The notes below the pieces were generated by a model that was not told the origin of the DNA, made no database searches, and saw only the letters and a list, made by a program, of their open reading frames with translations. Shown piece after piece: positions 26,001-64,000 of a DNA stretch of 64,000 nt (position 1 is the stretch's first letter; each line of letters opens with the position of its first letter). Source of the stretch: Phoronis australis (taxonomy: Eukaryota > Animalia > Phoronida); contig NMRA01000194.1 of the NCBI GenBank assembly GCA_002633005.1, forward strand, positions 206,458 to 270,457. Reading direction: 5' to 3'. Made by a program: the position numbers and the translations under genes.

Positions 26001-29000
26001 CTTGTTGGGAAATGACTAGAATTGGAACGGAAAGAGAGCTGGAATTCAATTACTCTACAGGAAAGTAAGGCAAATCCACCAATTTGGAACACAGTGTGAC
26101 AGGCAGATATGTTGCATCAAAGCATTAGTTTACCATTTCTAAGTTCAGAATATAATAAACTAGAAACACTGGTTTTCTGTTTTCAAACACAGAGAAACCT
26201 GAAAAACGTGTCACACTGAAAAAAGAACAGTGCCACGAGACAAAACAAATAATTACTTGAACAAGTCAGTTGCAAACTGATCATCGATTGATTTGTGGTC
26301 AGAATTGTGGAATTTCGTGGATTATATTTTTAATTTAATTGGTAATTAACTACCAAACATACTAGAAATATGAAATTTAATACTGAAATAGGTAAATTAC
26401 ATTCAAAACCAACTCCCTCGCATGTACACCTTTCTAATCATGAACTACATAGGCTGATCCAAACAATAGAGCCACAGAGTGGATTCTTGGAGTGAATAAG
26501 ATGGCAGGTCGCCGTAGAAATACTTCAACATTATTAACCCATTTTAGCCGTGAGCAACAGTTCAGTTTCTTTTATTACGTGTGAACTACGGTGGATAAGA
26601 TGTCATCAATACAGTACTTTAGTTACTATTAATCAAAGTACATGCTTTCTCACAAACCAAAAGATGGCAGGAAAATGTTCACATGAACTAAAGTGAATGT
26701 TATGATTCTAGATTGTCGTAATAATTGTAGATAAAATAAAACCACTATAACAACATTTTAGAACCCATACAAGTACAATGTGCAAATGTTCAGCGCTCTC
26801 TAGTCACAGCGCCTCTTACCTGCAGGAGAGAATCTGATGCGTATCTCATTCTCTGTTGAAACATGATGTTAAGCTGTTTGTTGTGAGACTCTAGATCTTT
26901 CACGCGGCCCTGTAGATTCATGCACTCCTCACGCAGACTCTATAGAGAGTAGACACGCATGTTCAGGGCGATTATACAATCAACATATGGCAAGACACAA
27001 TCCACCTGAACACCAATTTCATGATTTGCAAACAAACTACTCCGAGTCTCAAGGATTCAGAATTCAATGTTTCTAGACAAGCCACAATTACCTCTCACTT
27101 ATCAGTAGTTTGTTAAAGCTGACCGAGCAGTGGTTAATAACCGAGAACGCCTATAAACCAATGAATGTCAAATAAGTAACATACTATTAAGCTCGGTAAA
27201 TTTTAGTTACCAACACTTTCAAAAGCCAACAAAACATACCTTTTGAAAAATTACAGACTTCATTTTATGAACAGTATTCTCTTTATAGGTTATTTTAACT
27301 GACATTCTCAGAAAACTTTAGAAGGAGCATTTGCCGTACAAATTCCAACGCCATAGTGTACATTTTAAAGGCTTTGAAAAATGTTGATATTAATGAAAAC
27401 GGACCAGTCAGCAAGACAATTTACAGTTGGTGAAAACAACAAAATCAAGACGAGTCATGTCAAAATAAAACAACAAAAACAACAAAATATCTTAAAAATT
27501 AGCATTGTTGTCAAGTTAGTTTATAGCGTCATCAAACCCGTGCTTTCAGTCAAAAGCCAAGCTTTGATTTAGGCAACTTATCGTTATGAAATTGCTCTCA
27601 AATTGTTCCTTAGTCAAATTATATGTGACGTCTGGATTTGTAAAGAACGTGAATGTTCTTCATTCCGTTTAGAAGCGTTCTCTGGACTTGAAAAGAACTG
27701 CAGTCTGCTATTTCGCCAGGGACGAAGCTCGTAAAATTTCAGGTAATGTTGTGATTGGCAATTTAACGAGCTTGGCCTGAGGTAATAACAAAATGTTTTT
27801 TTCCAAGCTCAGAGATCACTTCTAAATGGAGTAATGCATGAGACAAAACCAATTTTACAATATGGTAAGTGGATAAAATCGGAACACGTTTATTGACAAA
27901 GTATGGGTTTAATGTCGCTTTAAATATAAAATAAAACAATAACTTTGTGTAAGTAAAATTATTATTAACCTTGAAGTGCAGGCTTGTGAATCTCGTGCGA
28001 ATCTGTTAAATCAATATGTAATGTCCACGCAAATAAGTCTAACACGTATCATTGAAATGGAATTCAGAGTTAAAACCAGCAATGGTCAAATTTTAATGAT
28101 GAGAGGAGCCAGTGTGGCCCTCTGGGTTGAGAGTCCCATTTCCTGTTCTTAATGTCGTGGGTTCAAATCTCACTAGATGGCACTGCTAGACGCTTGAGTA
28201 CCTCAGTCTCTAATTCAACCCTCAGCCCGGACTAAATTTGTGTATACCTGTATATGTTAATAAACAAGAAAATGGGCAGCCAGTGAAAGCCTGATGCAAC
28301 GTGTATCGGATCACCAGCTGGCCTTTATGCAGGGTATGGCCTGGATGCCCTAGCACTAATTTGGACGCCCTGGCAAGGACGCCCAATGTATCATTTGGAC
28401 ACCCACTGTCAATAGGAACCTTTCATGTTTGGACTCGCACATTGAAATGAATACTAGGAAGTCTCTGAAGGCTCACAGTGGGGACTCTTTTTTTCAAAGC
28501 AGGAAGAAATATACAATGTACATACAAAGTATCTACAATGTTGCTACGCTGGCACTTGGTTGATAGCATTGTAAAAGTCTTGGTCTACAGTTTGTTTTAG
28601 TAAAAATGCTCACTACAGAAGGCTGTTTTTTAAACTTTGATGTAAAAACCTTGGTCTGTGTATTTTTTGTAAAAAAATCTGTGTTTGGGGGGGATTGCTG
28701 GGGGTGGGGGGGTTTACGCATCGGAATCATGGACGTCCTGGAATATTGGGAACCCCATTTTGGACACCCTATTTTCGAAATCCTGGATAAAGGCCTGATC
28801 ACCAGCACTATTTATTTTAAAACTAATGATGTGCTGGAAGTCAAATGTGGTCTAGCAACTTTGTCAACTTCTATTAAAACATTAAGACAAGTGGCATTTG
28901 TGTTTCAGCAGCCTTTTGGTCTTTCAGAACATCTCCAAGGACGCCAGCATGTAATGAAGCCCAAGTAAGAATGATTCCTCTTTCGGCCTCACGACGACAA

Positions 29001-32000
29001 AGAAATATTAAAATGGAGAAATGAGTAATTATTTCCACAATGAATGAATGACAGAGAGCTTTTGGACAATTCCTTCATTACTGATCAACAAACTTAAATT
29101 TCTATTTTGAACAGTTTTCTACGTTTAAATCATCACAAAATGACATGGTCAAATTAAATACACATACAAACAGCACTTTCCAAAAATTCAGTTTTTCTAA
29201 CACACGTGAGAATTTTCTGCTGAAAAACATGGAAGCTATTGCGGAGAGGACACGCTGTATTTACCTTCTGAGTGAGGAGAGCCTGTACGACCTGATTGGC
29301 TATCTCGTCCAGGCATTTCTCATACTGTGCCCTCTGGTTCTCATTCTCCAGAACCAGTGAGGAGTTCTCCGTCTCCATGCTACGCAGCCGTTCCAGAAGT
29401 AACTTAGACTTTTCACTGTCATGCGTTAGACCAGGCTAAAACATTTAGTAACAGACACATTCTAACTACAGTGGGTTAGCTCTGTTATCAAAATAGCGCT
29501 AACAATATCAGTCATGAACATTCATCGTGACATAATGCATTTCAACGTATTTAGTGATTGAAGAAAATTAAAATAAACTAAAATTTCATACATTAAAATA
29601 ATAACATCCTCGAAGTGCACTGAAAATATAAGGAAAGAAAACAAAGTAAACGGAATCTCAGAGATATGATCGTGAGTAGAGCCATTTAAAAAATATGTTC
29701 GAAGCATAAATAAAAAGACAAAACTTTGTCTTAACAAAAATCACTATCACAGTTGCATCGAGCATGCAAAATTTAATTTATGGCCTATTTCTCAGTCATC
29801 AGAAGTCTGAGTACAACTCTAAAATACTTTAAACTGACAATACGTCACCATAGAGAATAGATATACCACCTCAGTAACAGTATCACAGCTTCAGCATTAA
29901 CACTCGAAAATATTTGTTAACGTTAGAGACCCACTATCAAAAAAATGAAAAATTCATTTGCGCAAACCTAAAATTAGATTTTACCCATTTAGTAAATCAG
30001 GAAATCCTATTTTGGCATTTCAAACTCAAGGAATAACTGCCACAAAATTATTTGGGAATTGCCAAATAACACTTTCCACTAAATTTTTGTCGCAACTCAG
30101 TTTTCACAACTTGCTGCACACTATGTAGATTATCTAACAACCAAAAACAAAAAACATAAAACAGCGCCACCTTCGGAATGAATGCACAACTACTGCAAAA
30201 TGTCTGTAGATCCACTTGTGGCCAGAAATTATCTACTAGGTTAACATATCTGATGAATCATATTCTTCCAAAAAATATTAACAGTTATCAAGTCTACTGC
30301 TGAAATGTGTGAATTGCGTTTGAAATGTAGAATTCCATGAAAGATTCAACTTAGATACCGTAAGTCCGTCTGTCAACAGTTACGGCAGAAAACTAAGGTC
30401 TCTATAACATGCAGCCACAGAATACCAACCTGACGCACTCTGTAGTCCAAATCATGCTTGCAATAGAAACAGGAGGATTGCTGAAAGCAGATAAAGCATG
30501 CTATTTACACGACTTCGTACTTAAATGATTTTCATACAGATCCATAATTTAATCTCATTTTCATATATCGTAAGTATTTCTCAATACATGAAATCCACAA
30601 AATCATTACAGTGTTCCCCAATGACCCCAACTTTTTTGATCGGTTGGCGAGTGAACAAGTTGAGAGGATGATTAGCATAGCCAGTATCTTACACAGCTGA
30701 TTAACTCTATTCTGGTACTTATGGTTCGAGGGCCAGCTCTCTTTTGCTCGATAACTGACCTATCGCAAGCTCTGTCCCCTTGCGAAAAGTCACGTGACAT
30801 CCAACAAACAAACAAACAATAAGTTTTACCGGGCAACGTGTTGTGTGTCGGGTAAAATGGCAGATTGGAAAAAAGGTTGTGTCAAGAAGGCTGCGTTCTG
30901 ATAGGTCAGTTAAGCTGTCACACTCAAAATCCTGGTGATAGATGTATTCTATCCGAACGCATACAAATGCATTGGGTTTGACTGTGTTCATACGCGGTCA
31001 GCAATAAGGTACAACCACTATATTTTCATAACACTTACATCTAAGATACAGATACATAAGTCTCATATTTGATCCAATACGTTGGTTTCTAGCAGTATAA
31101 ATGACTTTAATAAAGATCTTACACCTGGTGTGTTGGTTTTACTGAATTACGTGCATTACTATCATGGTCAAATTGATTGCAAATCTAACATCACATGGTT
31201 CGTATATGTTACGATTTCCGTGTGCAGTTAGCCTGGTTTCGCCAAAACATGAAGATGTGTTGTGAATACGCATTCAACTTTCCCTTAAAACACAGGTGTT
31301 CATGCTCAAACTATGAGCGAGCTTACTGGAGCTCATAAAACCGGACAAAGAATTTTTATTTTAATTTTTTCTGATATAGAAATTTCCAATTTAATTTAAA
31401 ATTTTACAAAAATAGAACTTTTTAAATTCTTCATCCGGATTCCTGAAATTTGACTTTATTTTTGTGTAAAAATAACCTTCACACCCCTTGATAGGGCATA
31501 TCCTATGTGTGCAAAGACGGCAAACTTAGTCACTTGCGGGTGCCATGAATTTTGAACTAAAGGTGGAAAGCCAACGTCCCATGGAGTATCAAAATGCACT
31601 TGAAGTCCGTGCAAACTTTTGGAATTAGGATACTGAGGGTTTCAGGATCTATTAATGTGAGTTTTATTTGACAAATTAAATTTTAACATGGATAAAAAAA
31701 ATTTAAACTTGGACGTTCAGCACAACAAAATCACCGATCCGAAAACAAAATAGGACCAGCTATGACAGAAGGTGGAGCTCTAAATGAAACGAGCCGCTAG
31801 GATCCGTTCCACAGTAATGCATACATTTTTAGGAAAACTCCAGAACTAGTCATCCTAAAAAGCTGCACAGTGAAACAAACAGGTGGAGCGGCTTTTCGTT
31901 ACTGAACAAACAGCTTGAGAGCACCTCGACTTCTTGAAGTTAATAATGCTTGCTGGAGTCCACTCCCTACTGAAGCTAAATGTTTCATGGAACAAGTCCC

Positions 32001-35000
32001 AAAGGTAATTCCAATACAATGGTTATTGACAAACCCAGAAAACATGGCCATAATTTATTCATTGTTGTACTACTGTTACCTGATGGCCAAAGTAGTTCTG
32101 CCAGGTTTCAGTAACCCTTTGAAGCCTGGTAGATAATTGGCCTGCCTGTTGTCATACCAGACAAAAGACTGTGCTTGGCAGTTAACAAAGGAGCTAACAT
32201 TCACAACCACTCTATGTCTAATAAAGACACTGAACAAGAGAACACTCTAATAGCTAGCAGAACTGCAAGGGTAGTTTTCTATTTCATACACAATGGCAAA
32301 ACTTCCACCTTTTCCTAAAACAAAAAATTGCCCTTAAGGGTCAAAACTGTTCCTGAAAGAGTATATGGCGTTTTAGAATTTTAGTAACCCATCAAAATCA
32401 GCCACTCACAACTTTCAGTAGTCGTTTCATTAGCTAACACAACACGGGTCAAGATTATCAAAGTTTACTCAAGACTCGGCATAAAAATTATCAAATCACG
32501 TGACTTGCTTCAAATGTACAAATTTCGTACTAGTGTGACTGGACAATTTTTAGTGAGACCTGAAATGAGTTTGGCAGCCTCAGTCAGTTGAAACTCACCT
32601 GTGATTCGAGTTTCTGTACCTGGCCAATCAGTACCATGTTTTCATGCTCCAATTTCCCAACATGCTCACGGTACTTCTGTAAGCTATTCTGTGATTGGAC
32701 AAAAGCATACAGCATTAGACAGTAAATGGCACTTGAACAAAACTTCCACAACATGCCATAACCACAAGGCACTGTTTACTGGGATTACCTGAATGCAAAA
32801 TAAGGGTATATTCCTTTCTGCGCTAACACCACCTAGTGGACACTGAGTTCCTCAATGATATCATTTACATAAATGTAACCAACAAAAAGTTATCAATACA
32901 ACTTCATTTTCAACCAAAGCCAAGTTAGAGTGCATCGAGCGTAATGCAACAATCTCACCGTGGCTTATCAGGAAGATGAGAATGTAAAACATGGTGGCAG
33001 GAAGTGAAATTGGGTCAGAGTTAGTGAAAAGTTCTGATCCACAACATCAGCACCATGATTCAAGCCATTCAAGCCCGGCTTGCATGCAGACGTGTAGACG
33101 AATTAAGCTACGAACAAACTAATATGGAGACCTAGATTTTCAACTCCAAAACAGAAATACAGTTAACCAGGAAAAGAACAGTGCCACCTTCAGGAAGACT
33201 GAACAACTACTTGAAAATGTCTGTTGCAAAGCCATAGTTGATCATTGGATACAAGTTTAAGGTAATTATATTTGTAATTTTTGAAAACTAAAAAATGAAA
33301 AATAAAAAATATTACAATAATGAAATCTACTAGAAACATGTAAATTCCATTCAAAGCCTCCAAATCCATGAGAAAAGTCCGTTTTCCATTGCGGAAAATC
33401 GCATATCTAACCTAATAATTTACACAATACAGCGTAAAGCCGCGCATCAGTGTTATAACACAGCATTATAGTGACACGCTGCCGTGGGTACACACCTCAT
33501 AGGAGCAGGAGAGACTGGCTTTCTCCTGCTTCAGTTGTTCAATCTTGGACTTGTACTGCACCATACTACGCACCATGTCCTCCATCCTGAAATGCACAAC
33601 AACGGAACGCATTAAGACTAGCCAAAATATTGTAAAAAGTCTCTAGATTGGGAGTCTATTGAATTTGGGACACGTAAATTCCCGTAAAAATTACTTTTTT
33701 TTGTTCTGGAATTTGGGAGAAGGGCAATTTTGGCGTTCACCACATTTCTCAAAATTTTGGGCAACGCTTTTTCAATCTACAGAGTGTACAATTTTGCCTT
33801 CTTTCCAGTGATTCCTGAATTGGAGATGGCCGATATTGCCCATCTTTAAAATTTGGGACAAGCTCTGGGCCCTTTCCAGGAAAACTGACTTAGCTAAGTC
33901 AAATCTTAAATTTCAGTCAATTTTACGATAAAATTTAAATTTGTCTCAAGTCCGTTTCAAGAAAGAGACCTTAAGTTTGAATTAAGCTTTTAACTTAAGT
34001 TTGACTATCTTACCTGGTGTGGAAGTTTCAAACTTTGGAAGTTGAGACAAATCTTAGATTTAAGTAAAAAATGAACTTAAGCCACTTTCTTGGAATAGGC
34101 CCTTGACCTTGAGCAAATTATTTTTTCACTGTCCCAAATTGGAAAATTTTAATAACTTCTTGAAATGCCCCTGAGGTGGTGATGTAACAACATTTCTAAA
34201 GTCTATTGGTTTATTTACACCAACCTCTGACCTATTTACATTAAGCACAATTTAACAGGGTCGATGTAAACAGGCTAGAGGCTGGCATAAATAGACAAAG
34301 AAATTTTAGAAATGATGTTAAACTTGACAAAGACCTGGACATTAGAAATCACGAACCTGTTTCCAACAAGACATTAACGTGCAAAACAAATAATTAATGG
34401 TAATAAAACAGTAAAATCACCACAACACAATCTCTGAAAGAGCAGAAGGGTCCACAGTTCTACCAGGAGTCACTCCTACCCTTGAACCATATTTGATACT
34501 CCAAATCTGAGACAACCACAAGGAAGTGACCTCCCCCCTCCCATATTGTGAAAGGCCCTGAAATAACCTCGTGTCTTCAATGCTTCATTAATTCATCGTG
34601 GAAAGTTGTTTTACAAATTTTGTCTACAGGACGTGGCAAGTGTAACATAGCATAACTAGCAATGAGCTTAGATATTGAAAATACCAGAACTAATGCACTA
34701 TATAACCAAGATATCATTATACCAAGTGTAACATAGCATAACTAGCAATGAGCTTAGATATTGAAAATACCACAACTAATGCATTATGTAACCAAGATAT
34801 CATTATAACAAGTGTAACATAGCATAACTAGCAATGAGCTTAGATATTGAAAATACCACAACTAATGCACTATATAACCAAGATATCATTATACCAAGTA
34901 CACTTACTACACATCTGGCGCTCTTTTAACCCTGAGGTTATAATGTCTAAGTGGTATGTCGGAAGACAGTCACTTGAATAACGTGATTGCAATGGGTAGT

Positions 35001-38000
35001 ATGCAATCCTTGTCATTTGTGAATAACCGCACAATTAATCACAAAGACACTGGTAATACGCATTACTCACAACTCAATTAACATTCCACCAATAGCATTT
35101 TTTCTAATACTATGCCGATATGAGATGACAATAGTTTGGCCTTCTACAATTCACATGGGATGTAGGTAGAAATTTTCACAGTAAAAATTCTCCAGTTTAG
35201 AACAATGAAAAACTAATAATTTTGGTCAAGGTCGGAGCTTGCACCAAATTTTAGAAATAGGAAATATTGACCCTTCCAAACTGAATAATTAAGATCAAAG
35301 ATAAAAAATCATTCACCATACTATAGGGATACCTGAAAATGTTGCATCGGTCACTAGTCTTCATGATTACATGAAATGCCCAATCTTTTTGATACAAAAC
35401 GCAGAGTCTGATATTCTGAGAAATATGACGAACACCAAAATCGCCCATGCCCCAATCTTCAGTATCAAGAAAATTCAATTTCGTCTTGAATTTTGGATTC
35501 CAAACTTCAGAGACTGACCCAAACTAAAGAAACTTGAAAGTAAATTTGTAATTTTGCAGTGTTTTTAGCATCCTTTGAGCTCATCACGCTGTCAAATTAC
35601 CATTGCTGTGAGATGGAACATTCACATGACTTATGCAAATATCTGCGGTTGAAAAGGGTTATATTTCTTCCAGACTATCTTGATCCCCGCGGACTAACAG
35701 ACTGCGAGACTAGAAGAACCATCAGCCGCTTTCCTGATGTTATTACACTAAAGAGCTTTTAAGTCCACTGTTTGCATTTGTCATATCCCAAACACAAATG
35801 GCTTAACTCGCTTCCGAGCAAATTTCTGCGAAACGGTGACAGGTGGTGGATGACTAAATGAGATCATTTTTTATTAATTACCAATCAAAAACATTATTGC
35901 AGCCAGTTCGAAACCATCAACTAAATCCTAATCCTTTGGCTATGAAGGAGCAATCTGTATAACTGGATTAGCAATCTGTCGCCACGAAAACACCGAGTTT
36001 GCAAAAGATTCATTTTGGTAAAACAATGTGTGGAAATCTCAAAATTCTAAACTGAACCGTTTCCAAGACGCTTTGCTCTGAACGTCACGTGAAGAAATAG
36101 AAACTTGGAAGACCAGGTGAATTTTCACCGTTTTGACACAAACAGCAACTTCCACGTGAAAGCTTATCCATTTCCACATTAAAAATACGAATGCCAGACA
36201 AGTATGTTTTCCTATGAAAGCATTTCCACAACCCTAAATGACGTTTACACATTCCAGCAACCAAATATTAGCATGTTGTTCTAAATCATGTACATCTCAG
36301 AAGAACTAAGTAATTCCTCAATGTTGGAAATCAAGGTCTTACTGCAAATAACAAGAATTTCCTCGTCTTCTCATACTACCTCATTCATCTTTCAGTAGAC
36401 CCTTCCAGTATTACCCACACCCATGTCTCAAAGACAAATTTCGGGTAATCACCCTCAATTTCGCCTCGTACCATGAGGGTAATTACCCACAATTCCTCAG
36501 ACTGAGCACAGATAGGAGGAAGTGTCAAAATATCAGTTCACCTACTTTGCCATGTCTTCCTGCAGGTTGTGTAGTCGTGCTTTACAAGCGTCGCTCTCTA
36601 TTGTCACTTCATGAAGTCTTCGTTCCGCCTCAATTCGCAGTCGCCGTTCATGCTCAAACTCTTTCACATAACCTTCGCGCTAAAATGACCAACGGTAAAA
36701 TAATGTAGAGCTGCTGAATCGCAGTCTGAAATGAAACAATCTCTCGCTTGGCATTATCAACTCATATAGGAGATACAAAATTATTCGGACAAAAATTCAT
36801 CTCCGTATTTACAGGCAGCAAACTGACATCATTTTAGCAAAAGACAGGTGAAATCTTTTTATTGATTTTATCTAGGAAACAAAATCCTTATAAAGATTTT
36901 TTTCTTTGAATCTGTCCAGAGTTGGTTGTTACGCTCAAATAAATAATAAGAATGGCCGCGAGACATACTGTGCACTACCTGCAGAGATATATACACCTTT
37001 ATACTTTGCTACGGACAGCCCGAGTTAGCTCTGTGGAGACACAGATTCATTGAGCTGTATGCATGGACAAAGTTAGCATGCTGTAAGGTTGGGAGTCTCT
37101 AGAGAGGGCGACTAAATCAACAACCATTCAAGCACAAAATGCAATTGGAGAAAGCTTCTAATTGGCAACAGGGCTCTCTCATTGGAAAATAACTTGAAAC
37201 TGTTTCATTTCACTAATAATACACAGTCTTACAGTCGTAATTCCTCACTTTTGTCAAGACGGGATAAAAACACTAGTACTGTTTTTTCTCAAAATGCAGG
37301 AAAGGTTATCCCCAAACATTTTACTCATCTACCAGGAATGACTGTTTCAAAGTCACAGTGCAGTGCCACCTATCCACAGACCCCAGTGTCATTCCACTTC
37401 AAATAGTTTCCCAAATCTCATCTTAACTATACAGTCCTTCTTCATCACCTACACTGTTGCACAGTGACCTCTCCACTTGACCTTAACACTAGAACCAATC
37501 AACTCACCTGACTTAAAGCTAAAAAATGATGGATCGGTCCACTAAAGTATTATGGGGGAGTTATTGCAAAATTTAATCCAAAAAGAATGACCTTTAATCT
37601 TACCAACGGCATATCTAAACTAAATACGCCAACTCGGACAGATCGATCCAGTTAATGGATAAGAGGGAGCTTGACCATTCACTAATTTGAACCTAGGATT
37701 CAAAAGTCATGCCAAGCAGAACTCATGAGAAGATCCTTCACCTGGCTAATGCCACATGAAACAAACCAATACATCATTCCTACATGATTTCAGGTGCAAC
37801 ACACGTATTCATCAAGTGAATGTACCAAAACAAGAAGAATGTAAAGGATGGTCCACAGCATGACCTGCTGTACTTCTATATTTACATACAATACACAACT
37901 GCAAGAGTTGAAGCTAATTATGAACTACCTCACTAATTAAGTTTATTCATCAGTCTACTGCTAATAAACCAGTGGTTGCCTCTGCTTTGTAAACAGTCGT

Positions 38001-56000: not shown

Positions 56001-59000
56001 ATCACCTTTAACAGCCATTTTCTCCCACATATACCGTACTACTTTAAACCACATTGTGTAGGCAAGACACTTGCCCAGACTTGAAATGACAGATAGCAAC
56101 AAATCACGATATGAAAATATAATAAGAACTCAAAAAATAACCAAAAACAGGCGAGTCCAGAAGAATATTCTGAGGAGCTAACGTCAAATAAAATAATAGC
56201 TCTAGGTTCTTTTCTAAAGCGTGCCACTGACAGCAGGCCAAGATTGGCAGAAAATTTCAACAAACCCATCCCAAATGCTGCACCTGGAACTCAAGACAAT
56301 TTTACCCAGGCAAAAATGCTTCGAGTTCAGAATAACACGTGCAGAGATTTTCGAAAAACTTACAAACCAAAATTTGAATTTCCATCATTCGCATACAATC
56401 AGGCAGCAACAATCTTAAAAGAAATTGGAGCAGCTGAACGCTTAACATCATCCCTACGTGTCATGTGACCACAGATTTCGGGGACCCTTTAACCCATCAC
56501 GTCACAGAACTCAGTCTCACCTCTCTCCGCTCCCTTTCCAGTCTACACCTCCACAAGTTGACCGTTGTCAGAAACAGAACTAGGGTCAAGGCCAAAGCCA
56601 CTGTCCACTGCTCGCTCATCAATGCATGACTATCGCCCGACTGATCACTGTTGGCTAGCCTCACAACAAACAGCCACCAAGCAGACACGAGCATGCCCAC
56701 CACATTCAGACAGCTTCATGACTCCACTACATGTTCACGCGGATAAGTCTGGTGTAATGAGTCCAACTTGTTACGTAGACTTTAGAAGAAATCAATATGT
56801 CGACTCGCGTGATTCAAAACAATGCACATCGAAATCAATCACATAATCACCACTTAGAATGCCACAGAATATGGTAGGTGGTTCCGCATGAAGGCCAGAA
56901 GAGAGTTGGCTATTTATAGACGGTCAGATATTTAGTAACCAATGCTTTCTTGAGATGACATTCACAATTATAAACAAGTAATAATACACTATGCTCTAAT
57001 CTAAGCTCACACTGTGAAGCTGCCAGTGATAAAGCTGCCACCTATGGTGAAGCATTTGAACCGATAACACTGGGTAATGGGCAATTTTTCTGAAGTACTT
57101 TCACATTTCATCAAATACCTTTTTTATCTAACGGTAAATAACTTTTTATCAAATAACTTTTTATCTGTCCCACTTCAACCTTTAAATGTTCATATTTTCT
57201 GAAACCTCGACTACTGAATAATCTTAATTCATGCCTTCGAATGTTCTAGTTGTTTCTAACTGTGTAAAAGCCATTTTTGTGAAAATTGTCATTCTAGAAA
57301 CCTTTACTGCTGACAATGTACTCTTACTGTCAATAAACAGGGAACCATATTTCAGATTTTTATTGAAACTCAAACTGTAGAGATGTCACCCACCAAAACC
57401 CTTTAAAAGGATACTAAACCCCCAATTTGATGATTTCAACCAATCCTCGTTCTGTCACCTGGTAATGCACCACTGGCATCAATCTTCCAAGTTAACGACA
57501 GGAATCAACAAAAAACTCGGGTTGCCTATGTCACAGGTAGGACATTATGGACAATGGTCCTTAGTGGGTGGTCTTTTCCCATAGTTGCCATGTAATTTAC
57601 TAAAAGCTAAAAGCGTAGGTCACCCTTGCTTGTTTAGCAGACTTTGAAAGAAGTTTTAAAATTTTCCTCCAAACTTTTGAGGGTTGTCGAGGTTTACAGT
57701 GTATTATTCTGTTTCAGAGGACTGGATGGAAAAGTCATTTTTAGTATCCGTTAATAGGCCAAAACCAGGTTTGGTATCATTTTAAATGAGGTCACAAATC
57801 TTCATTTCTGACAACCGATATCTCCGCAGTTCGAAAGTAAATCAAAACTCTCAAACACACATTGCCTGGTCATAGACCATCAAATAAATGACATCGTGCA
57901 AAAATTCATTGAAATCGAATCATGCAAGAAAGAGTAATCGATGACTGTTCAAATCTGCTACAAAAGTCTTGACAATCAAAAAGCCTGAAAATGGCCAAAA
58001 AGACTGGCTGTAGAATTGAAATTGACGCGAGTTGTACCAAAGAATTCGTATATTTGGCGTCTGAATAATCCGTTTTAAGAAAAGTTATGTGTGGTCAAGA
58101 CAAACATAGAGCAACTTCTGTACAAGATGTGAATGTCGGATTTTTGAAGAAACTTCCACCAAGATTACCAGTCACCACAAAACAGTTAAGTGCACCTTTG
58201 CCCTTCACATACGCCATAAAATCTTAACAATATAGGACACACTATGGCAGACAAGTGAAATTTTATTTTTTTCCATGAAAGATGGGCAGCACTAAAGTAA
58301 CAATGCTTTAACATGTTCGAGGTCTGCAGCACATAAAAAATAATTACAGGCAGTCTGGTATACGTTGTACCTGAGTCTGCATCATGGCTACCACCAGACA
58401 ATACTGCGACAAATTGTGGACACTCACAACAATGATAGAAGCCTATGAGAAATGAATGAAGGGCTACCATATTACCTTAACTGTTTTTGTCCAAAAGTGG
58501 TGAGATTTTACCACAAAAACTTCATCCAGGCACTCTACAGTGCACTTCATCTAGGCACTCTACAGTGCACTTCATCTAGGCACTCTACAGTAAACGTCAT
58601 CTACACTCATGCATTACTAAAAAGTGGCCATTTCAATCTGGCTACAAAAGAAAAAATACGAGATATGACTCACATCAAAATAGTGTTTTAAATAAAAATT
58701 TCAAAAACACCTCAAAAGTACAGCCTTAAAAATCAGGACATGACTTTTCAGTTTTTCAGTAGTTGAAGTTACGATTAGGATATATGTCACTGCTACTCAA
58801 TATTGAAACCTCCTGTTCAACACTCCAATAGAACTGGGCAGGAGAGCATGCATGGGATAGTCATGCCCTCTGGTGGGCATACACATAAACTGAGAACACT
58901 TAACGATACCTGAACAAAACTTGCAACAAAACATATTTAACAAGGCTGCGTTTCATAGACCCAGAACACTAGTATGATGGTGCACTTTACACGTAATCTG

Positions 59001-61718
59001 TGATGATCTCACGAAGACTCGCATGATTTTGCGTTTTCGTGAGATTCATTTATTGACAGAGCACAGCCCAGGACAAACTAGAACTTAAAAGAGCCAAACC
59101 TACCAAAGCACAAGACTGGAACTAACTAAATTATAAAATGTTCATTCATACACACATAACGTCCATGTGATAATTTAACACAAATAGGATATAACGTAAC
59201 ACTTGTCTAGAATTCAAACCAAAACAACTCAATAGTGAACAATAATTTACATACTGACCTGCAGTCTCTGTTAAAACAAAAACAAAAAGGGATGAAAAAA
59301 GAAAGACGGATTAAATGAGACGACACTACGATACGTTCTACAATAAGTTTTTGTTAGTAACTCATTACGAGAAATCTTGGCAGTTTCATTCAGATGCCAG
59401 TTTGGAAACTCCACAAAGACCCACCTACCATTGACTCAAACACCAGCATATTAACCAAGCCCACACTTTCAACCTTTAATTACAAAATAAACAGTTTTAG
59501 CGTTCTTAACATGTGTCAGAATAGACACTCCGGACTAGGTTCGAGTTTATTATCGCTATAACGCTAGATTCCGCAAGATATCAAGACTGTGTACTTTTAA
59601 TAAGAGCACATTACTTTAGCGAGATTTTTTTGCCACGAGACAGTAATAATGAACTTAACTCAGATCAGTCCCAACAGACATGTTGGATTTTGGCACATCA
59701 AAATACTATTCAGAGTTCACTCTTAAGCAATTGCAATTTTTTCCTAAATCTTGCACATTACTGCGTCTCAAATGTGCTTCACAATGTTTCCATATCAGAA
59801 ATCTTGACAATAACTGCTGATGCAAACATGTCCTACTATGTCATATAGCATTATACTTACACTCTATTATGAATTTTGGACTTCTAACAAATTTATGTGG
59901 TTAGCGCTAAATCGGACAACTTAATCTTAGTCTNAATGAAGAATATAAATCGGTAAATAAAACAACAAGAATGGATCAACTGAAATTTGAAATTTTCGGA
60001 GGTAACAACTTCCTTTATCAACAAAAACAGAAATAAAGACTTCTAACAAATTTATGTGGTTAGCGCTAAATCGGACAACTTAATCTTAGTCTGAAATTAT
60101 ATACACGCATGTAAATATAACATAGAATGAAAGTCTCGGTCAAAATGGAATAATGACAAGCAAGCTCACTACTTACCAATCAGATTTGTTTTCACAGTAG
60201 ACTTACTTAATTATTACTTAATGGCATACTTTGCTGTTTTGACACTGGTCAGTATGTCAAACTTTCGTTTATTGATTTTTTTTCTTAGTTTTCGCATTTT
60301 TGTCAAAATCAAACTATAGTTTTACAAATTTTATTTATAAATAACATTTCAATTATATTTGTGTGGATACCGTGATGACTGTTTCAGCATTATAATATGG
60401 AGAAAAAAATTTCATAGGGGTCGTCACAAGGGAGCCAACTTCAGCCATTCACCAAGTGATAAAATACAGACAGTTAAATCATCATTATAAGATTCCCAAG
60501 GCATAACTCTGAAACCCCAGCACTTTATCTCGGTTTAACTAACTACAATACAAGACAAAAGTAATCGGACAAACTACGGCTTCCTCATCATCACCACTAA
60601 TTCTTTGAACAGTAAAAGTGACTGAGGCAGCAAATTGTATTTACAGACAGATCTAGCCACCTTAGTAACTTTCTAATTAACTCCCCCTCATTCTCAGTCA
60701 TTAGGTAAGGCTACACTGGTTAGAAGTTCACCTTCTACTCAGCCATCATGAGGGGGAATTGTAAGATATTTTGTCCGAATACTTTTGGCCTCAACTGTAG
60801 TTACTATACATTAATTTGGAAGTCTTGCCAACAGCCTCTAGTAAATTTGGGTACTTAGCATACCTGAAGCCGCCAGGCAAAACCCACCTTCTGGTGAAAA
60901 TCACTTTTGGTGTAGACGGCTTAGCATTATAAGCTTGGTACTAACATGTACCTTATTCGGATCTGAGAGGCGTTTTCCGGGCACAGGCAAAACTGACAAT
61001 TCTGATTGGTGGACACAAGTCTCACTAGAATAGCACAACAGCACCAGTAATTTTATGCCCTGAGCACGGTTTCAAGCAATAACAAATATAGGTTATTCCC
61101 GAGAGCGAAAACAAATTTTTAGCGCCTGCAACAAGTTGTGACCAAGCCTGCAGTACATAGGCATAAGAAACTGGCGAAAATGCAAGATGACGCAAGCCTT
61201 CGTAAGAAATTGCAATGCGTTATGAACAAAGGATAAAAGCACACAGGCTTTTGACATGATTACTTCTTGGGGCTATGAAAAGCAGCTGATTTTGATCATC
61301 ACCGAAGCGCTTTTCGCATTTAGGAAATCTTTACAGTTTGTCACTGCTCAAGACGAGGCTCAATACATTGGTTCAACAAGGCTTTTATTTGTTCAGCATG
61401 GGCTAAAGCGTTAACAGACCCGCATCAGTTCTTTTCAATCCCAGAAGTCATTTTTGACCTTAACAAAATAAGAAACATTTTATCAACCAAGTGTTCTAAA
61501 CCAAAAGGTAGTTTTTGACAGAAGGTGGATATGTAGCACCTTTAATTAAGGTCTACAGCGGACACCAACAGGCCACTCACCATCATGGTCTTGCTCTTGC
61601 TGCGGGATAGTTCCTGTTGCAGACGTGCTATGGTGATCTTCTCTCGTCTGCTCATCTGACGCTCCTCAGTCAACTGCCGCTGCAGCTCATGCAGACGACG
61701 CTCCAATGAGACCATGTC
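7494..61718 (-). CDS. NCKAP5: Multi-exon NCK-associated protein 5 (NCKAP5/NCKAP5L) family gene, 5'-incomplete; overall span of 12 identified coding exons (~1540 aa)
   Basis: Hand-spliced exons have GT-AG borders and compatible phases from 61718 down to 19098. The translation contains KSKLLLERLRSMETENSSLVLENENQRAQYEKCLDEIANQVVQALLTQK-SLREEC, which nearly matches the recalled human NCKAP5 segment KTKLLLERLKALEAENSALALENENQREQYERCLDEVANQVVQALLTQKDLREEC. Confidence 0.9.
8646..12868. repeat. 2.1-kb head-to-tail duplication (8646-10746 / 10748-12868) joined by a single N; probable uncollapsed haplotypes
   Basis: Copies are co-linear with scattered SNPs and short indels, and the junction is exactly the N at 10747. 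Confidence 0.9.
13028..13171. mobile_element. Short degenerate MITE (gcggatccagga-type terminus, G/C-run interior)
   Basis: Right end aaatcctggatccgcttct, left end cggtggctgatttag, internal ggggg..ccccc hairpin. No clear TSD. Confidence 0.4.
13759..13798 (+). ncRNA. Degenerate minimal type-I hammerhead ribozyme (Penelope-like pLTR relic)
   Basis: tgacac-CTGAAGA-cggccatagaaat-GAAACGTT-gtgtca: perfect 6-bp stem I, both core boxes and palindromic stem III, but stem II is incomplete. Confidence 0.5.
14648..14817. repeat. 24-bp minisatellite x7 (catgcagagactgttcattgtgtt)
   Basis: Seen directly in the sequence. Confidence 0.95.
15071..15450. other. Assembly gap (380 N)
   Basis: Run of N. Confidence 1.
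16064..17081 (+). mobile_element. Old, diverged copy of the Helentron/pearl-type satellite-bearing element seen at 62064-64000
   Basis: Begins aactagaattcc. Contains decayed subunits (aaattgccactagggggtgtc, aaattgccactagtgaa, ggtcactaggtggcaa), then caaaatttcacaaacatccatcaaggggttttgagat, ggacggac and a terminal atgtac..gtacat hairpin. Confidence 0.65.
18606..18818 (-). mobile_element. tRNA-derived SINE
   Basis: Reverse complement aligns along its length with the copies at 38010-38223 and 48334-48579. Confidence 0.85.
19098..20069 (-). CDS. NCKAP5: NCKAP5-like exon K (972 nt, 324 aa, phase 0-0): IGRKDMPNIQADLREM...HTSCVDPQ
   Basis: Core of ORF 19086-20189. Acceptor tgccttcag, donor CAG|gtgagt. 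Confidence 0.85.
20615..20970. mobile_element. MITE with ~26-bp imperfect TIRs
   Basis: Left end ccaggattttccgcagataagcccat versus right-end reverse complement ctgggattttccgtagataagcacat. Confidence 0.7.
21064..21120. repeat. 28-bp tandem duplication just inside the intron after exon J
   Basis: ttcaatacRggatggRtcaatctgacac x2. Confidence 0.85.
21129..21257 (-). CDS. NCKAP5: NCKAP5-like exon J (129 nt, phase 0-0): SIISDSSDDESQSGVLNFVEMWKSRPQVKLPDWDPKKRLEELN
   Basis: Acceptor ggatctag, donor AAT|gtgagt. Open frame with coding-like composition. Confidence 0.82.
21668..21810. repeat. Dispersed repeat fragment; inverted relative at ~57640-57786
   Basis: The run tttaaaagaatac..tgactttcc..tcaaccctcaaaactttgga aligns with the reverse complement of tccaaacttttgagggttg..ggaaaagtca..gtatcattttaaa. 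Confidence 0.6.
22015..22470. mobile_element. Dispersed DNA-transposon-like repeat; inverted relative at ~47072-47480
   Basis: The reverse complement of 22381-22470 matches 47072-47165 (ccttagaaaaatg.ctaaatttggcta..catatctcagaaatggct). Short terminal IR gtaggacct/aggtcctac. Confidence 0.65.
22510..24507 (-). CDS. NCKAP5: NCKAP5-like exon I (1998 nt, 666 aa, phase 0-0), Ser/Pro-rich disordered region
   Basis: Core of ORF 22462-24585. Phase-0 acceptor caattgcag|AGT, donor CAG|gtactg. A very large central exon is typical of this family. Confidence 0.88.
25183..25269 (-). CDS. NCKAP5: NCKAP5-like exon H (87 nt, phase 0-0): AYSFLNQSRHGSGNSMHSVDSGDFLLGGD
   Basis: Acceptor ctaactcccttgcag with a branch-point-like ctaac, donor GAT|gtaagt. 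Confidence 0.8.
25911..26015 (-). CDS. NCKAP5: NCKAP5-like exon G (105 nt, phase 0-0): SFPNKKLMRSKLNGSTDSKGSGSQDSYHSLPVNPQ
   Basis: Pyrimidine-rich acceptor ending caattctag, donor CAG|gtatac. Open frame and locally raised GC; no homology recognised. Confidence 0.75.
26820..26939 (-). CDS. NCKAP5: NCKAP5-like exon F (120 nt, phase 0-0): SLREECMNLQGRVKDLESHNKQLNIMFQQRMRYASDSLLQ
   Basis: Acceptor ctctctatag, donor CAG|gtaaga. Resembles human DLREECVKLKTRVFDLEQQNRTLSILFQQRVRPTSDLLLQ. Confidence 0.93.
28105..28818 (+). mobile_element. Diverged tRNA-derived SINE interrupted by a hAT-like MITE
   Basis: Head ggagccagtgtggcc..gtcgtgggttcaaatctc. After removing 28318-28805 the tail reads cgtgtatcggatcaccagcactatttatttt, matching the tail of the copy at 48541-48570. 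Confidence 0.7.
28318..28797. mobile_element. hAT-superfamily MITE (480 bp) with 8-bp TSD
   Basis: TIRs ctggcctttatgcagggt / caggcctttatccaggat. Perfect TSD atcaccag at 28310-28317 and 28798-28805. Internal (tt)ggacrccc repeats. Confidence 0.85.
29265..29435 (-). CDS. NCKAP5: NCKAP5-like exon E (171 nt, phase 0-0), most conserved coiled-coil block: PGLTHDSEKSKLLLERLRSMETENSSLVLENENQRAQYEKCLDEIANQVVQALLTQK
   Basis: Acceptor atgttttag, donor AAG|gtaaat. Near-identity to the NCKAP5/NCKAP5L signature ENENQRxQYExCLDExANQVVQALLTQK. Confidence 0.95.
29925..30403. mobile_element. Degenerate MITE-like repeat; related copy at ~33125-33410
   Basis: Termini tagagacc / ggtctcta. Shares aacagygccaccttc.g.a..caactact..aaaatgtctgt with 33178-33225. 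Confidence 0.5.
32599..32688 (-). CDS. NCKAP5: NCKAP5-like exon D (90 nt, phase 0-0): NSLQKYREHVGKLEHENMVLIGQVQKLESQ
   Basis: Acceptor ccaatcacag, donor CAG|gtgagt. Heptad-like coiled-coil sequence; overlaps ORF 32584-32772. Confidence 0.85.
33496..33586 (-). CDS. NCKAP5: NCKAP5-like exon C (91 nt, phase 2-0): (K)MEDMVRSMVQYKSKIEQLKQEKASLSCSYE
   Basis: Acceptor tgcatttcag, donor GAG|gtgtgt. The phase complements exon B. Resembles human MEETVRNLLQ. Confidence 0.88.
33700..34150. repeat. Dispersed repeat (second copy ~40355-40560) split by a nested MITE
   Basis: Co-linear similarity with 40361-40560 once 33867-34102 is removed. Confidence 0.7.
33867..34102. mobile_element. PIF/Harbinger-like MITE (236 bp)
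   Basis: TIRs gggccctttccaggaaa / gggcctattccaagaaa, many internal ttaag repeats, absent from the sister repeat at ~40510. Confidence 0.7.
34637..34899. repeat. 86-bp tandem repeat x3, near-identical
   Basis: caagtgtaacatagcataactagc... starts at 34637, 34723 and 34809. Confidence 0.95.
36546..36679 (-). CDS. NCKAP5: NCKAP5-like exon B (134 nt, phase 0-2): REGYVKEFEHERRLRIEAERRLHEVTIESDACKARLHNLQEDMA(K)
   Basis: Acceptor cattttag, donor AA|gtaggt. Resembles recalled human ELEEERHLRLQSEKRLQEVTLES. Confidence 0.9.
38010..38223 (-). mobile_element. tRNA-derived SINE
   Basis: On the - strand: ggaggcagtgtggcc A-box region, B box gggttcgagtccc, conserved body ccaggtgatc.gtgcaatgggcccacat and AT-rich tail. 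Confidence 0.88.
41677..41767. repeat. Compound (CA)n/(CG)n alternating purine-pyrimidine microsatellite
   Basis: Seen directly in the sequence. Confidence 0.9.
42925..45343. mobile_element. Non-autonomous Tc1/mariner-superfamily (Tc2/pogo-like) DNA transposon, 2.4 kb
   Basis: TA TSDs; ~24-bp TIRs ccgtaatcggtggggttaacgccc / ccgtaatcgttcgggttaatgccc; clusters of ttaaccgccc at both ends; no transposase ORF. Confidence 0.88.
48334..48579 (+). mobile_element. Full-length tRNA-derived SINE with 13-bp TSD
   Basis: A-box-like tggcctggttga, B box gggtttgagtccc, AT-rich tail. TSD aaatggacgtttt at 48321-48333 and 48580-48592. Confidence 0.92.
49416..50846. mobile_element. Non-autonomous Tc2/pogo-like DNA transposon, 1.43 kb, carrying a HIRAN-like pseudogene
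   Basis: TA-flanked termini ccgtatttt / aaatacgg, with subterminal aagcgccc motifs similar to the element at 42925. Confidence 0.75.
49496..49860 (-). pseudogene. Frameshifted HIRAN-like domain remnant
   Basis: Ordered motifs across shifted frames: SIHGLHVYYEIWN, NPIDKYAVSVLKGQTIVEGEVPGEISKTC, LFLKRVGS*KCGVT..GGLEIP..FSG..LVDKLK. These match the recalled invertebrate HIRAN-like pattern RGYHVY..W..N..DxYAV..VGHVPxEIS..FL..GG..VTG..GGLEIP. Confidence 0.7.
52606..53809. repeat. 560-bp near-identical duplication (52606-53165 / 53250-53809) at a single-N join; probable haplotype artefact
   Basis: N at 53166, offset 644, few SNPs. Confidence 0.88.
53024..53077 (-). CDS. Candidate alternative first exon MNYLCDICTNDADEWIEL (second copy at 53668-53721 inside the duplicated segment)
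   Basis: 18 open codons from ATG to TTG|gtcagt, phase 0, compatible with exon B. No homology support. Confidence 0.35.
54735..55386. repeat. ~325-bp duplication (54735-55057 / 55059-55386) at a single-N join; probable haplotype artefact
   Basis: N at 55058; the copies differ by a SNP and a 5-bp indel. Confidence 0.9.
56521..56694 (-). CDS. Candidate alternative first coding exon encoding a signal-peptide-like segment plus a transmembrane helix, in phase with exon B
   Basis: ATG at 56694 (or 56619). Translation MLVSAWWLFVVRLANSDQSGDSHALMSEQWTVALALTLVLFLTTVNLWRCRLERERRE ends at donor GAG|gtgaga in phase 0. Confidence 0.6.
56911..56943 (-). promoter_or_regulatory. Candidate TATA box (TATAAATA) with adjacent CCAAT motif for the internal first exon
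   Basis: + strand tatttata at 56911-56918 reads TATAAATA on -, about 220 bp upstream of ATG 56694. ccaat at 56939-56943. Confidence 0.4.
58521..58591. repeat. 25-bp tandem repeat x~2.8 (ttcatctaggcactctacagtgcac)
   Basis: Seen directly in the sequence. Confidence 0.9.
59259..59267 (-). CDS. Candidate 9-nt frame-preserving microexon (AGA CTG CAG = RLQ) between exons A and B
   Basis: Preceded by a ~35-nt polypyrimidine tract ending taacag and followed by donor gtcagt. Confidence 0.55.
59879..60092. repeat. 55-bp duplication (59879-59933 / 60038-60092) across a single-N join
   Basis: N at 59934; gacttctaacaaattt...cttagtct is identical in both copies. Confidence 0.8.
61581..61718 (-). CDS. 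NCKAP5: NCKAP5-like exon A (138 nt, phase 0-0): DMVSLERRLHELQRQLTEERQMSRREKITIARLQQELSRSKSKTMM
   Basis: Acceptor tcatttgtag, donor ATG|gtgagt. Resembles recalled human LLTQLEEQHRSLWREKLAVARLQREVA. Confidence 0.9.
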
Positions 61719-62063: not shown

Positions 62064-64000
62064 AACAAGAGCAACGCAGAGCGTTGAAATGCGCCCACAA
62101 TTGCACCGCATACGGTATCCTTCTAGGGTTGTTTATTGGTACCATAAAGTGGCCAGTAGAGGGCATATATGTAGTATGTTGTACTTTGCAAAATGGAAAG
62201 GCATGGTCATTGTCTCCTCAATAGGCTAGGGGCAAAATGTGAGTAATCTTCATAATACAAGCACATCCTATACACCAGTTGCTTAAAGCACCACAGAAAC
62301 ATAGAATTAAAAACAAATTTACCAACATACGAGATTAGCACAGCATTAGAATGCCAGAAACAAATTTCTACTTGGAACTTTTCCTTCACAGTCACGAAGT
62401 AACACAAAGTATACACCTGAAGACCTATGAAAATACAGAGGTCAATGTAAAATACTAAAATTGCCACTAGAGGCAAATACTAAAATTGCCACTAGAGGCA
62501 TACCGGTAATCAGAATCATCCTAAAGTCGTCATCGTCCGTTGTCAACATCACATAAATACACTTGCTAAATTTAGTAAAGATCCTGCAAACGGTTTGGGA
62601 GATACAGCCATGGGCGCAAAAAAACAAAACTGCCACTAGGAGGCGCCACAGTAGTCCAAATCGTCTGAAAATCATTGTCAGCTGTCTTCCTTATAGTAAG
62701 CACATACACGCCAATTTTCACAATCATCCTTTGAGCGGTTTGGTTGATAGAGGGGTGGACGCAAAAATACAGACTCGAAAACAGTAAAAATGGCCACTAG
62801 GTGGCGCAAACTACGTCGAATCCATCTGAAAACAGTAGGATAGCGTCATCTCACTAATAGGTGCCTACATACCAAATTTCATGAAAATCCGTTCAATACT
62901 TTTGAAGATACAAAGGTAAGCGTAAAAAACTAAAATTGCCACTAGGGGGCACACCGGTAGTCGGATCCGACCAAAAGTCGTCATCTTCCGTTGTTAACAT
63001 CATATAAATATACTTACACAATTTGTAAAGATCCTGCGAACGGTTTAGGAGATACAGCCATAGGCGCAAAAAAACAAAACTGCCACTAGGAGGCGCCACA
63101 GTAGTCGAAATCGTCGGAAAATCATCGTCAACCGTCCTCTACATAGTAAGCATATACATGCCAATTTTCACAATCATCCTTTGAGCGGTTTGGTTGATAG
63201 AGGGGTGGACGCACAAAAACAGACTCGAAAACACTAAAAATGGCCACTAGGTGGCGCAAACTATGTCGAATCCATCTGAAAACGGGAGGATAGCGTCATC
63301 TCACTAATAGGTGCCTACATACCAAATTTCATGAAAATCCAATAAGGACTTGTGAAGATACAAAGGTAAGCGTAAAAAAATTAAAATTGCCACTAGGGGG
63401 CACACCGGTAGTCGGATCCGTCCAAAAGTCGTCATCTTCCGTTGTTAACATCATATAAATATACTTACACAATTTCGTAAAGATCCTGCGAACGGTTTAG
63501 GAGATACAGCCATAGGCGAAAAAAAAAACAAAACTGCCACTAGGAGGCGCCACAGTAGTCGAAATCGTCGGAAAATCATCGTCAACCGTCCTCTACATAG
63601 TAAGCACATACATGCCAATTTTCACAATCATCCTTTGAGCGGTTTGGTTGATAGAGGGGTGGAAGCACAAAAACAGACTCGAAAACACTAAAAATGGCCA
63701 CTAGGTGGCGCAAACTATGTCGAATCCATCCGAAAACGGCAGGATAGCGTCATCTCACTACTAGGTGCCTACATACCAAATTTCATGAAAATCCGTTCAG
63801 GACTTTTGAAGATACAAAGGTAAGCTTAAAAAACTAAAATTGCCACTAGTGGGCACACCGGTAGTCGGATCCGTCCGAAAGTTCGCACATGCCGTCCCAT
63901 TCATGAATGAAACATATCTGCCAAATTTCATGAACGTATGTCAAAGGGTTTTGGAGATAGAGCAGCGGACGCCGGACGCCAGACGCCGGACGGACGCCGC
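62064..64000 (+). mobile_element. Helentron-associated / pearl-type non-autonomous element with an internal ~450-bp higher-order satellite (3 x ~150-bp subunits); runs off the window end
   Basis: Starts aacaagagcaacgcagagcgttg (short hairpin). 450-453-bp units begin at 62481, 62931, 63382 and 63835, followed by ccaaatttcatgaa..ggttttggagat and a ggac/gacgcc microsatellite, the layout known for HINE/pearl elements. Confidence 0.8.

What the first reader, a model, noticed from the sequence alone, without database searches (positions are those of the whole stretch)
56521..56943. Internal promoter and first exon that could make NCKAP5 a single-pass membrane protein
Seen: inside the 25-kb intron A-B, an ATG-initiated frame encodes a hydrophobic N-terminus (MLVSAWWLFVVRLANS), a short polar linker, an ~18-aa hydrophobic helix (TVALALTLVLFLTTVNLW) and a basic tail (RCRLERERRE). 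It ends exactly at a good donor (GAG|gtgaga) in phase 0, so it would splice in frame onto coiled-coil exon B. TATAAATA lies ~220 bp upstream. Known: vertebrate NCKAP5/NCKAP5L (CEP169) are described as soluble cytoskeletal or centrosomal coiled-coil proteins. Inference: promoter choice switches between a soluble and a membrane-anchored isoform with the ~1500-aa scaffold in the cytoplasm. I do not know of such an isoform being described for this family.
Basis: partly seen in the sequence, partly recalled or inferred. Interest (0 to 1): 0.8.

Follow-up and report, generated by a model that had tools for sequence, protein, structure and literature searches.

The report
Membrane-anchor start exon in invertebrate NCKAP5
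Inside a long intron of an invertebrate gene for the coiled-coil scaffold protein NCKAP5 sits a hidden stretch whose RNA reads stop exactly at a splice signal and which encodes a greasy helix predicted to span a membrane, so the gene likely makes a membrane-anchored form beside the usual soluble one.

Summary
Observation confirmed. On the minus strand, ATG 56694 opens a 58-codon frame ending at a strong phase-0 donor (56521). It encodes an uncharged 19-residue hydrophobic stretch (W30-W48) followed by basic residues, and it joins exon B in frame. The host gene is an NCKAP5 orthologue, closest to mollusc proteins. RNA depth implies three clipped reads in two samples ending exactly at the donor, so the donor is used. 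Not shown: the joint to exon B was not among the listed joints, and first-exon status rests on about one read pair. That pair starts 9 nt upstream of where the TATA box would put the start site. Six ATGs lie upstream of the frame. No relative of the peptide was found, with thin invertebrate sampling. No paper on such an isoform turned up in five searches. This scan earlier reported a membrane-anchored NCKAP5 isoform in sea urchins (e1-7909048, untested here, seemingly another exon position). Verdict: likely a real membrane-anchor start exon (about 0.55), of the dystonin-a2 kind. A microtubule-tether role is weaker, because no canonical EB1-binding SxIP motif was found in this orthologue.

The parts
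56521..56694 (-). Coding part of the candidate alternative 5' exon, 58 codons: hydrophobic tip (1-13), polar linker, hydrophobic helix, basic tail
   Evidence: Open frame from ATG to donor; AlphaFold2 single-sequence model, helices 2-18 and 23-57, mean pLDDT 75.6
56551..56607 (-). Predicted membrane-spanning helix W30-W48, uncharged, tryptophan at both ends, followed by R-C-R
   Evidence: Kyte-Doolittle 1.77 over 19 residues, 2.35 over 15
56515..56520 (-). Splice donor GTGAGA, phase 0
   Evidence: Sequence; read depth stops exactly at 56521 in X2 (2 reads) and X3 (1 read), zero depth in 56381-56500
56617..56619 (-). Second in-frame ATG (M26), weak context; would give a short signal-anchor form
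56695..56898 (-). Putative 5' untranslated part with six upstream ATGs and in-frame stops
   Evidence: Two fully aligned 151-nt reads in X2 cover 56664-56898; upstream frames
56911..56918 (-). TATAAATA, candidate TATA box (unproven)
   Evidence: Sequence; 3 such words in the intron; one read reaches only 20 nt from its first T
61581..61718 (-). Exon A, coiled coil; replaced in the candidate isoform
   Evidence: tblastn to mollusc and coelacanth NCKAP5; splice sites
36546..36679 (-). Exon B, coiled coil; phase-0 acceptor, inferred target of the donor
   Evidence: tblastn; RNA depth on the gene's strand only in bin 36601-37267
26820..33586 (-). Exons C (33586-33496), D (32688-32599), E (29435-29265), F (26939-26820): rest of the conserved coiled coil
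   Evidence: exon E hits NCKAP5 proteins at E about 1e-15 and 70-84% identity
7494..24591 (-). Long serine-rich open frames of the scaffold (24591-22462, about 21257-21084, 20270-19086, 8171-7494); exon ends not mapped

Best explanation
A stretch in the A-B intron of this invertebrate NCKAP5 gene is transcribed on the gene's strand, and its RNA reads end exactly at the donor at 56521; it is likely an alternative first exon that would splice in frame to exon B and replace the first coiled-coil segment with a helix predicted to span a membrane. Shown: frame, donor, phase, hydrophobic helix, clipped reads. Inferred: (1) an internal promoter near 56.9 kb; (2) the splice goes to 36679, the next phase-0 acceptor of the gene; (3) translation starts at M1 or M26. 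From M1 the hydrophobic tip could be a cleaved signal peptide (A-N-S before D17 fits the recalled -3/-1 rule), giving a type I protein. From M26 the helix would be a type III signal anchor. (4) Either way the positive-inside rule puts the basic tail and the roughly 1,500-residue scaffold in the cytosol, on the ER or a later secretory membrane. The protein would tether NCKAP5 partners to that membrane; a microtubule link is plausible from the family but untested in this species.
For: with arithmetic: bin 56501-56530 holds 20 read-bases in X2 and 10 in X3, which is 2 and 1 reads ending at 56521. All 10 reads laid in X3 and 10 of 12 in X2 are only partly on the stretch; 5 reads are 99%+ alike; all exon reads have the same mate direction as those on exon B. 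Depth is zero in 56381-56500 and 56921-57070. The frame runs through exons B-F without a stop. The chance rate for a similar exon in this intron is 2-6% at middle criteria and 0 of 300 at observed values. The region is not a repeat within the window. Precedent: dystonin-a2 gains an N-terminal transmembrane domain through an alternative N-terminus (PMC3279385, passages).
Against: The joint is not listed. The three reads may be only two molecules, and run X1 has none. The 5' part rests on probably one fragment, and stray intronic reads on the same strand occur elsewhere (about 300 read-bases in X1, bin 55944-56600, outside the exon). That fragment reaches 56898, 9 nt upstream of the start the TATA box predicts. 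There are six upstream ATGs, two of whose frames overlap M1. No homologue of the peptide was found. None of 229 fetched NCKAP5 proteins of 300 aa or more has a 19-residue window above 1.41 in its first 250 residues, though only 8 are named invertebrate proteins. Loose chance criteria are met in 14-19% of shuffled introns.
Confidence: 0.55

Rival explanations
1. The exon is real but works as an untranslated or poorly translated leader. Upstream ATGs block the hydrophobic frame, or translation starts at a later methionine, giving a shortened soluble protein. The helix is then incidental.
For: Six upstream ATGs, two with frames overlapping M1; M26 has a weak context. Models starting right at the A|B boundary are common in the family: 17 of 205 proteins with the exon-B motif start at the methionine just before it. 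No conservation found.
Against: An uncharged, tryptophan-flanked 19-mer with basic residues after it at a strong phase-0 donor is rare by chance. M1 has a G at -3. Both overlapping upstream frames end before M26, so re-initiation could still make the anchor.
Confidence: 0.22
2. It is an internal cassette or cryptic exon of the upstream-promoter transcript. An acceptor upstream of the in-frame stop at 56718 would make a poison exon for decay; a phase-0 acceptor at 56640, 56610 or 56607 would insert the helix between exons A and B.
For: AG sites exist at 56779, 56766, 56748 and 56640. The only 5' fragment could be pre-mRNA.
Against: These AGs have 8-12 pyrimidines in the 20 nt upstream and several have competing AGs close by. 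No loose end or joint is listed at an upstream edge (below the three-read threshold this is weak). Two reads run unbroken through 56664-56898.
Confidence: 0.13
3. Splicing noise: a strong chance donor used at low level from a weak cryptic promoter, with no selected function.
For: Only 3 reads, in 2 of 3 raw-read runs; loose criteria met in 43-58 of 300 shuffled introns; no homologue.
Against: Coverage of the first 79 nt of exon B is only about 4 read-equivalents per run. If the clipped parts are exon B, 3 of about 12 would be a sizeable share rather than noise.
Confidence: 0.1

Closest known systems
Human NCKAP5L / Cep169 and NCKAP5 (PMC4613824, passages; PMC11466077, passages)
   Same: Same family by the N-terminal coiled coil (exon E 70-84% identical) and the same A|B boundary.
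   Different: Cep169 is described as a centrosomal and microtubule-tip protein; 'transmembrane', 'membrane' and 'isoform' occur 0 times in the main text of PMC4613824. It binds EB1 through SxIP motifs; this orthologue shows only one degenerate TGLP. The Pfam NCKAP5 domain PF15246 was not hit in the 8 window frames scanned and is also absent from three mollusc homologues.
Dystonin-a2 (BPAG1/DST) (PMC3279385, passages)
   Same: One gene gives a soluble and an N-terminally membrane-anchored cytoskeletal linker through alternative N-termini; a2 sits on the ER and perinuclear membranes.
   Different: Unrelated protein (spectraplakin); localisation shown by experiment there, only predicted here.
STIM1 tip-attachment complex (PMC7090928, summary and passages)
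   Same: A single-pass ER protein with a cytosolic part that couples membrane to growing microtubule ends, which this isoform would resemble if it binds EB1.
   Different: STIM1 is always transmembrane and has a proven SxIP motif; none canonical was found here.
Sea-urchin membrane-anchored NCKAP5 isoform (earlier scan note e1-7909048, citing RefSeq models of Lytechinus)
   Same: Same gene family, alternative front exon with a membrane-spanning-like helix.
   Different: The sequence look-up found no look-alike. Homology not tested; the proteins could not be fetched.

Membership tests
NCKAP5/NCKAP5L family (host gene) | Homologous N-terminal coiled coil | tested here: met
   314 proteins at E<=0.001 for exon E; the named ones among the 120 listed are mostly NCKAP5; exons A-F match in order
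NCKAP5/NCKAP5L family (host gene) | Pfam PF15246 C-terminal domain | tested here: not met
   No hit in 8 window frames; also '-' for mollusc P0004, P0021, P0034, so the model does not seem to reach these invertebrates
Alternative first exon from an internal promoter | Donor used in RNA | tested here: met
   Three clipped reads end at 56521, inferred from bin depths
Alternative first exon from an internal promoter | Spliced to exon B in frame | tested here: inconclusive
   Phase fits; joint not among those listed
Alternative first exon from an internal promoter | Own start site, no upstream splice | tested here: inconclusive
   One probable fragment reaching 56898; no cluster of starts
Single-pass membrane protein, C-terminus in cytosol (type I or III) | About 19 uncharged hydrophobic residues with basic residues after them | tested here: met
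   no second hydrophobic window in exons B-F (maximum 0.41)
Single-pass membrane protein, C-terminus in cytosol (type I or III) | Membrane insertion and topology in cells; SignalP/DeepTMHMM call | not testable with these tools
   No such predictor or experiment available
EB1-dependent tip-tracking membrane tether (STIM1-like) | SxIP motif in a basic, serine-rich cytosolic region | tested here: not met
   Only TGLP in the 709-aa frame, none in the other three scaffold frames; mollusc homologues carry SRIP or SKLP. The exon map of the scaffold is incomplete.
Conserved isoform across species | Homologous exon in relatives | tested here: inconclusive
   None. Only 3 of 11 loci hold exon B, with 2.2-8.7 kb upstream, and none shows exon A; no close relative's genome available

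The most novel reading that the evidence does not exclude
NCKAP5-family proteins have a hidden membrane-anchored form across bilaterians: a protostome (this gene) and sea urchins each use an internal first exon to bolt the centrosomal and microtubule-tip scaffold onto the ER, at apparently different points in the coiled coil, which would mean repeated invention of an ER-microtubule tether from a protein known only as soluble.
Probability: 0.25. Interest if true: 0.7.

Novelty: new variant of a known kind. Interest (0 to 1): 0.45.

Why it matters
Human Cep169 is studied as a soluble microtubule-tip and centrosome protein that helps load dynein and Lis1 at plus ends (PMC11466077, passages). A promoter switch that anchors the same scaffold in a membrane would add a candidate organelle-microtubule tether to a short list (STIM1, dystonin-a2) and give a direct test: tag both isoforms and look. 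The mechanism, an alternative first exon adding an anchor, is well known in other genes, so the novelty lies in the family, not the principle.

Tried and rejected
No whole genome is held for this window. Pfam on the peptide: one sub-threshold hit, FSAP_sig_propep, E 0.043; rejected. Word-index search with the peptide against longer proteins: 0 of 133 candidates. With exon B: 0 of 30 candidates, although exon B has clear homologues, so this search misses true relatives of short queries and one search is weak. Full HMMER search of 1.84 billion representatives: 1 hit, P0161, a five-fold repeat protein whose single stretches score about 8 bits; rejected as chance. ESM Atlas: best 0.78 to hypothetical proteins, a lead at most. 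Metagenome scan with the peptide: 0 of 588 pattern matches confirmed. Metagenome scan with exon E: 11 loci. The 3 holding exon B show no ATG-to-donor frame with such a helix upstream of it. L008 has a hydrophobic phase-0 frame ending at a strong donor at 1854, but with no ATG and with charged residues; not counted. Run X4 (contigs): nothing laid, no evidence either way. No RNA holder was listed by index; runs X1-X3 came by species label. Recursive splicing as the source of this donor: no YAG|GTRAG site at the exon; the only one in the intron is at 37508. A second anchor exon in other introns: the scan gave only a tandem-repeat frame (62504) and an intron read-through into exon D. Literature: searches listed no paper on a transmembrane NCKAP5 isoform (listings only; 20 of 27 shown in 13, 10 of 163 in 73); searches were for family background. 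Supplements were not read.

Full report
What is there. The window holds most of one minus-strand gene. Exon E (29435-29265) finds 314 proteins at E<=0.001; the best 120 were listed and the named ones are mostly NCKAP5. tblastn with mollusc proteins (Haliotis P0004, chiton P0021, Sinanodonta P0034) maps exons A to F and the serine-rich frames in order. Exon D and motifs of the long exons match the molluscs but not the two vertebrate queries, and exon C matches those only weakly. The animal is therefore an invertebrate, closest among those seen to molluscs. The Pfam NCKAP5 domain is not hit, as in those molluscs.

ATG 56694 opens 58 codons to 56521, followed by GTGAGA. Exon A ends and exon B starts in phase 0, and the candidate joined to B-F reads without a stop. 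Residues W30-W48 are uncharged with mean hydropathy 1.77 (2.35 over the best 15) and are followed by R-C-R. A single-sequence AlphaFold2 model gives helices 2-18 and 23-57; that says helix, not membrane. Of 8 ATG-to-donor frames of 19 aa or more in the intron this is the most hydrophobic. In Markov copies of the intron a similar exon appears in 58 and 43 of 300 under loose criteria, 18 and 6 of 300 under middle criteria, and 0 of 300 at the observed values. The criteria were set after seeing the site and the donor matrix is approximate and recalled, so sequence alone is suggestive, not decisive.

RNA. Three raw-read runs and one contig run with the same species label were laid, with 18-19% of each raw run read. 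On 56381-57280, bin 56501-56530 holds 20 read-bases in X2 and 10 in X3, which is what 2 and 1 reads ending at 56521 give; the four bins below are empty. All X3 reads and 10 of 12 X2 reads are clipped, and five reads are 99%+ alike. All exon reads lie in the same mate direction as the reads on exon B. I read this as splicing at the donor in at least two molecules from two samples. X1 has none. Other splits of the 20 bases in X2 are arithmetically possible. The joint to 36679 was not among the 15 joints shown (18 hidden; three reads are needed for listing), so the acceptor is inferred. The first 79 nt of exon B carry about 300-313 read-bases per run, about 4 reads each, so the exon could supply around a quarter of them if the clipped parts are exon B.

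The 5' end is the weak part. Two fully aligned 151-nt reads in X2, probably one pair, cover 56664-56898, with nothing in 56921-57070. Stray intronic reads on the same strand do occur (about 300 read-bases in X1 between 55944 and 56380), so this pair could be pre-mRNA. It also reaches 9 nt upstream of 56889, where the recalled 29-31 nt spacing from TATAAATA (56918) would put the start. The word occurs three times in the intron. Six ATGs lie upstream of M1, two with frames that overlap M1 and end before M26.

Relatives. The peptide found nothing credible in the word-index search, the full HMMER search, the ESM Atlas or the metagenomes. The word-index search also failed for exon B, so it is insensitive for short queries. 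Of 238 fetched proteins, 229 are 300 aa or longer (P0161 left out). None has a 19-residue window above 1.41 in its first 250 residues, but only 8 are named invertebrate proteins, and 194 hits were never shown. Eleven metagenome loci encode exon E; three include exon B with 2.2, 3.1 and 8.7 kb upstream, none shows exon A, and none has the exon. Conservation is thus neither shown nor fairly excluded.

How it likely works. An internal promoter would drive this exon, which would splice to exon B and drop exon A. From M1 (G at -3) the hydrophobic tip could be a cleaved signal peptide, leaving 13 luminal residues, the helix and a cytosolic scaffold. From M26 the helix would act as a signal anchor. 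By the positive-inside rule (established knowledge) both give the C-terminus in the cytosol. In human Cep169 residues 1-135 bind CDK5RAP2 and an SKLP motif binds EB1 (PMC4613824, passages). Losing exon A might weaken centrosome targeting, which is inference; I did not align exon A to that region. The microtubule-tip role is doubtful here: the window's scaffold frames show only a degenerate TGLP, while mollusc homologues have SRIP or SKLP.

Compared with what is known. It works like dystonin-a2, where an alternative N-terminus adds a transmembrane domain to a cytoskeletal linker (PMC3279385, passages). It would resemble STIM1 only if it binds EB1 (PMC7090928, passages). The Ciona preprint 10.1101/641233 (passages) treats Nckap5 as a homologue of centrosome-enriched proteins, upregulated in one neuron type. 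Searches listed no paper on a membrane form (listings only; subscription papers and supplements not seen). This scan earlier noted a membrane-anchored isoform in sea urchins, said to be in RefSeq models (e1-7909048). It is a lead, not support.

Verdict. The donor is very likely used (about 0.85). A translated membrane-anchored isoform from an internal first exon is the best reading (0.55), ahead of an untranslated leader (0.22), a cassette or poison exon (0.13) and noise (0.10). New variant of a known kind; interest 0.45.

Noticed in passing
window 37502-37530, minus strand: The only YAG|GTRAG site of the 24.9-kb A-B intron (pyrimidine tract, CAG|GTGAGT at 37508), 830 nt before exon B; looks like a recursive-splice point or micro-exon donor. 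No ATG in the phase-0 frame; RNA depth zero in that bin. Earlier notes e1-7909040 and e1-7909044 report such sites in sea-urchin NCKAP5 introns (unchecked).
   Followed up: partly
window 7494-24591, minus strand: The scaffold seems shorter than the mollusc homologues (about 1,550 against 1,850-1,900 aa, rough sum) and lacks a match to their middle region, where their SxIP motifs lie.
   Followed up: partly
window 29265-29435 and L001-L011: Exon E is unbroken here and in L001 and L002, but L003-L010 have an extra intron near its end (after ANQ): an intron gain or loss marker.
   Followed up: no
L008:1768-1854: Hydrophobic phase-0 frame ending at a strong donor (CTG|GTAAGT) about 390 nt before exon B, without an ATG.
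   Followed up: no
window 42600-45900, 48300-48600, 50400-51400: Intronic repeats heavily covered on both strands by RNA reads 90-95% alike, likely dispersed elements expressed from other loci.
   Followed up: no
window 62475-63882; 54735-55386; about 8400-12700: A 450-nt tandem repeat (3.1 copies), a 329-nt tandem duplication at 98%, and a duplication of about 2.1 kb seen as repeated frames; the last two may be assembly artefacts.
   Followed up: no
P0023, P0135, P0136, P0229, P0232, P0234, P0236: Some whale and wombat NCKAP5 gene models end in hydrophobic tails instead of the usual C-terminus; probably read-through into introns.
   Followed up: partly
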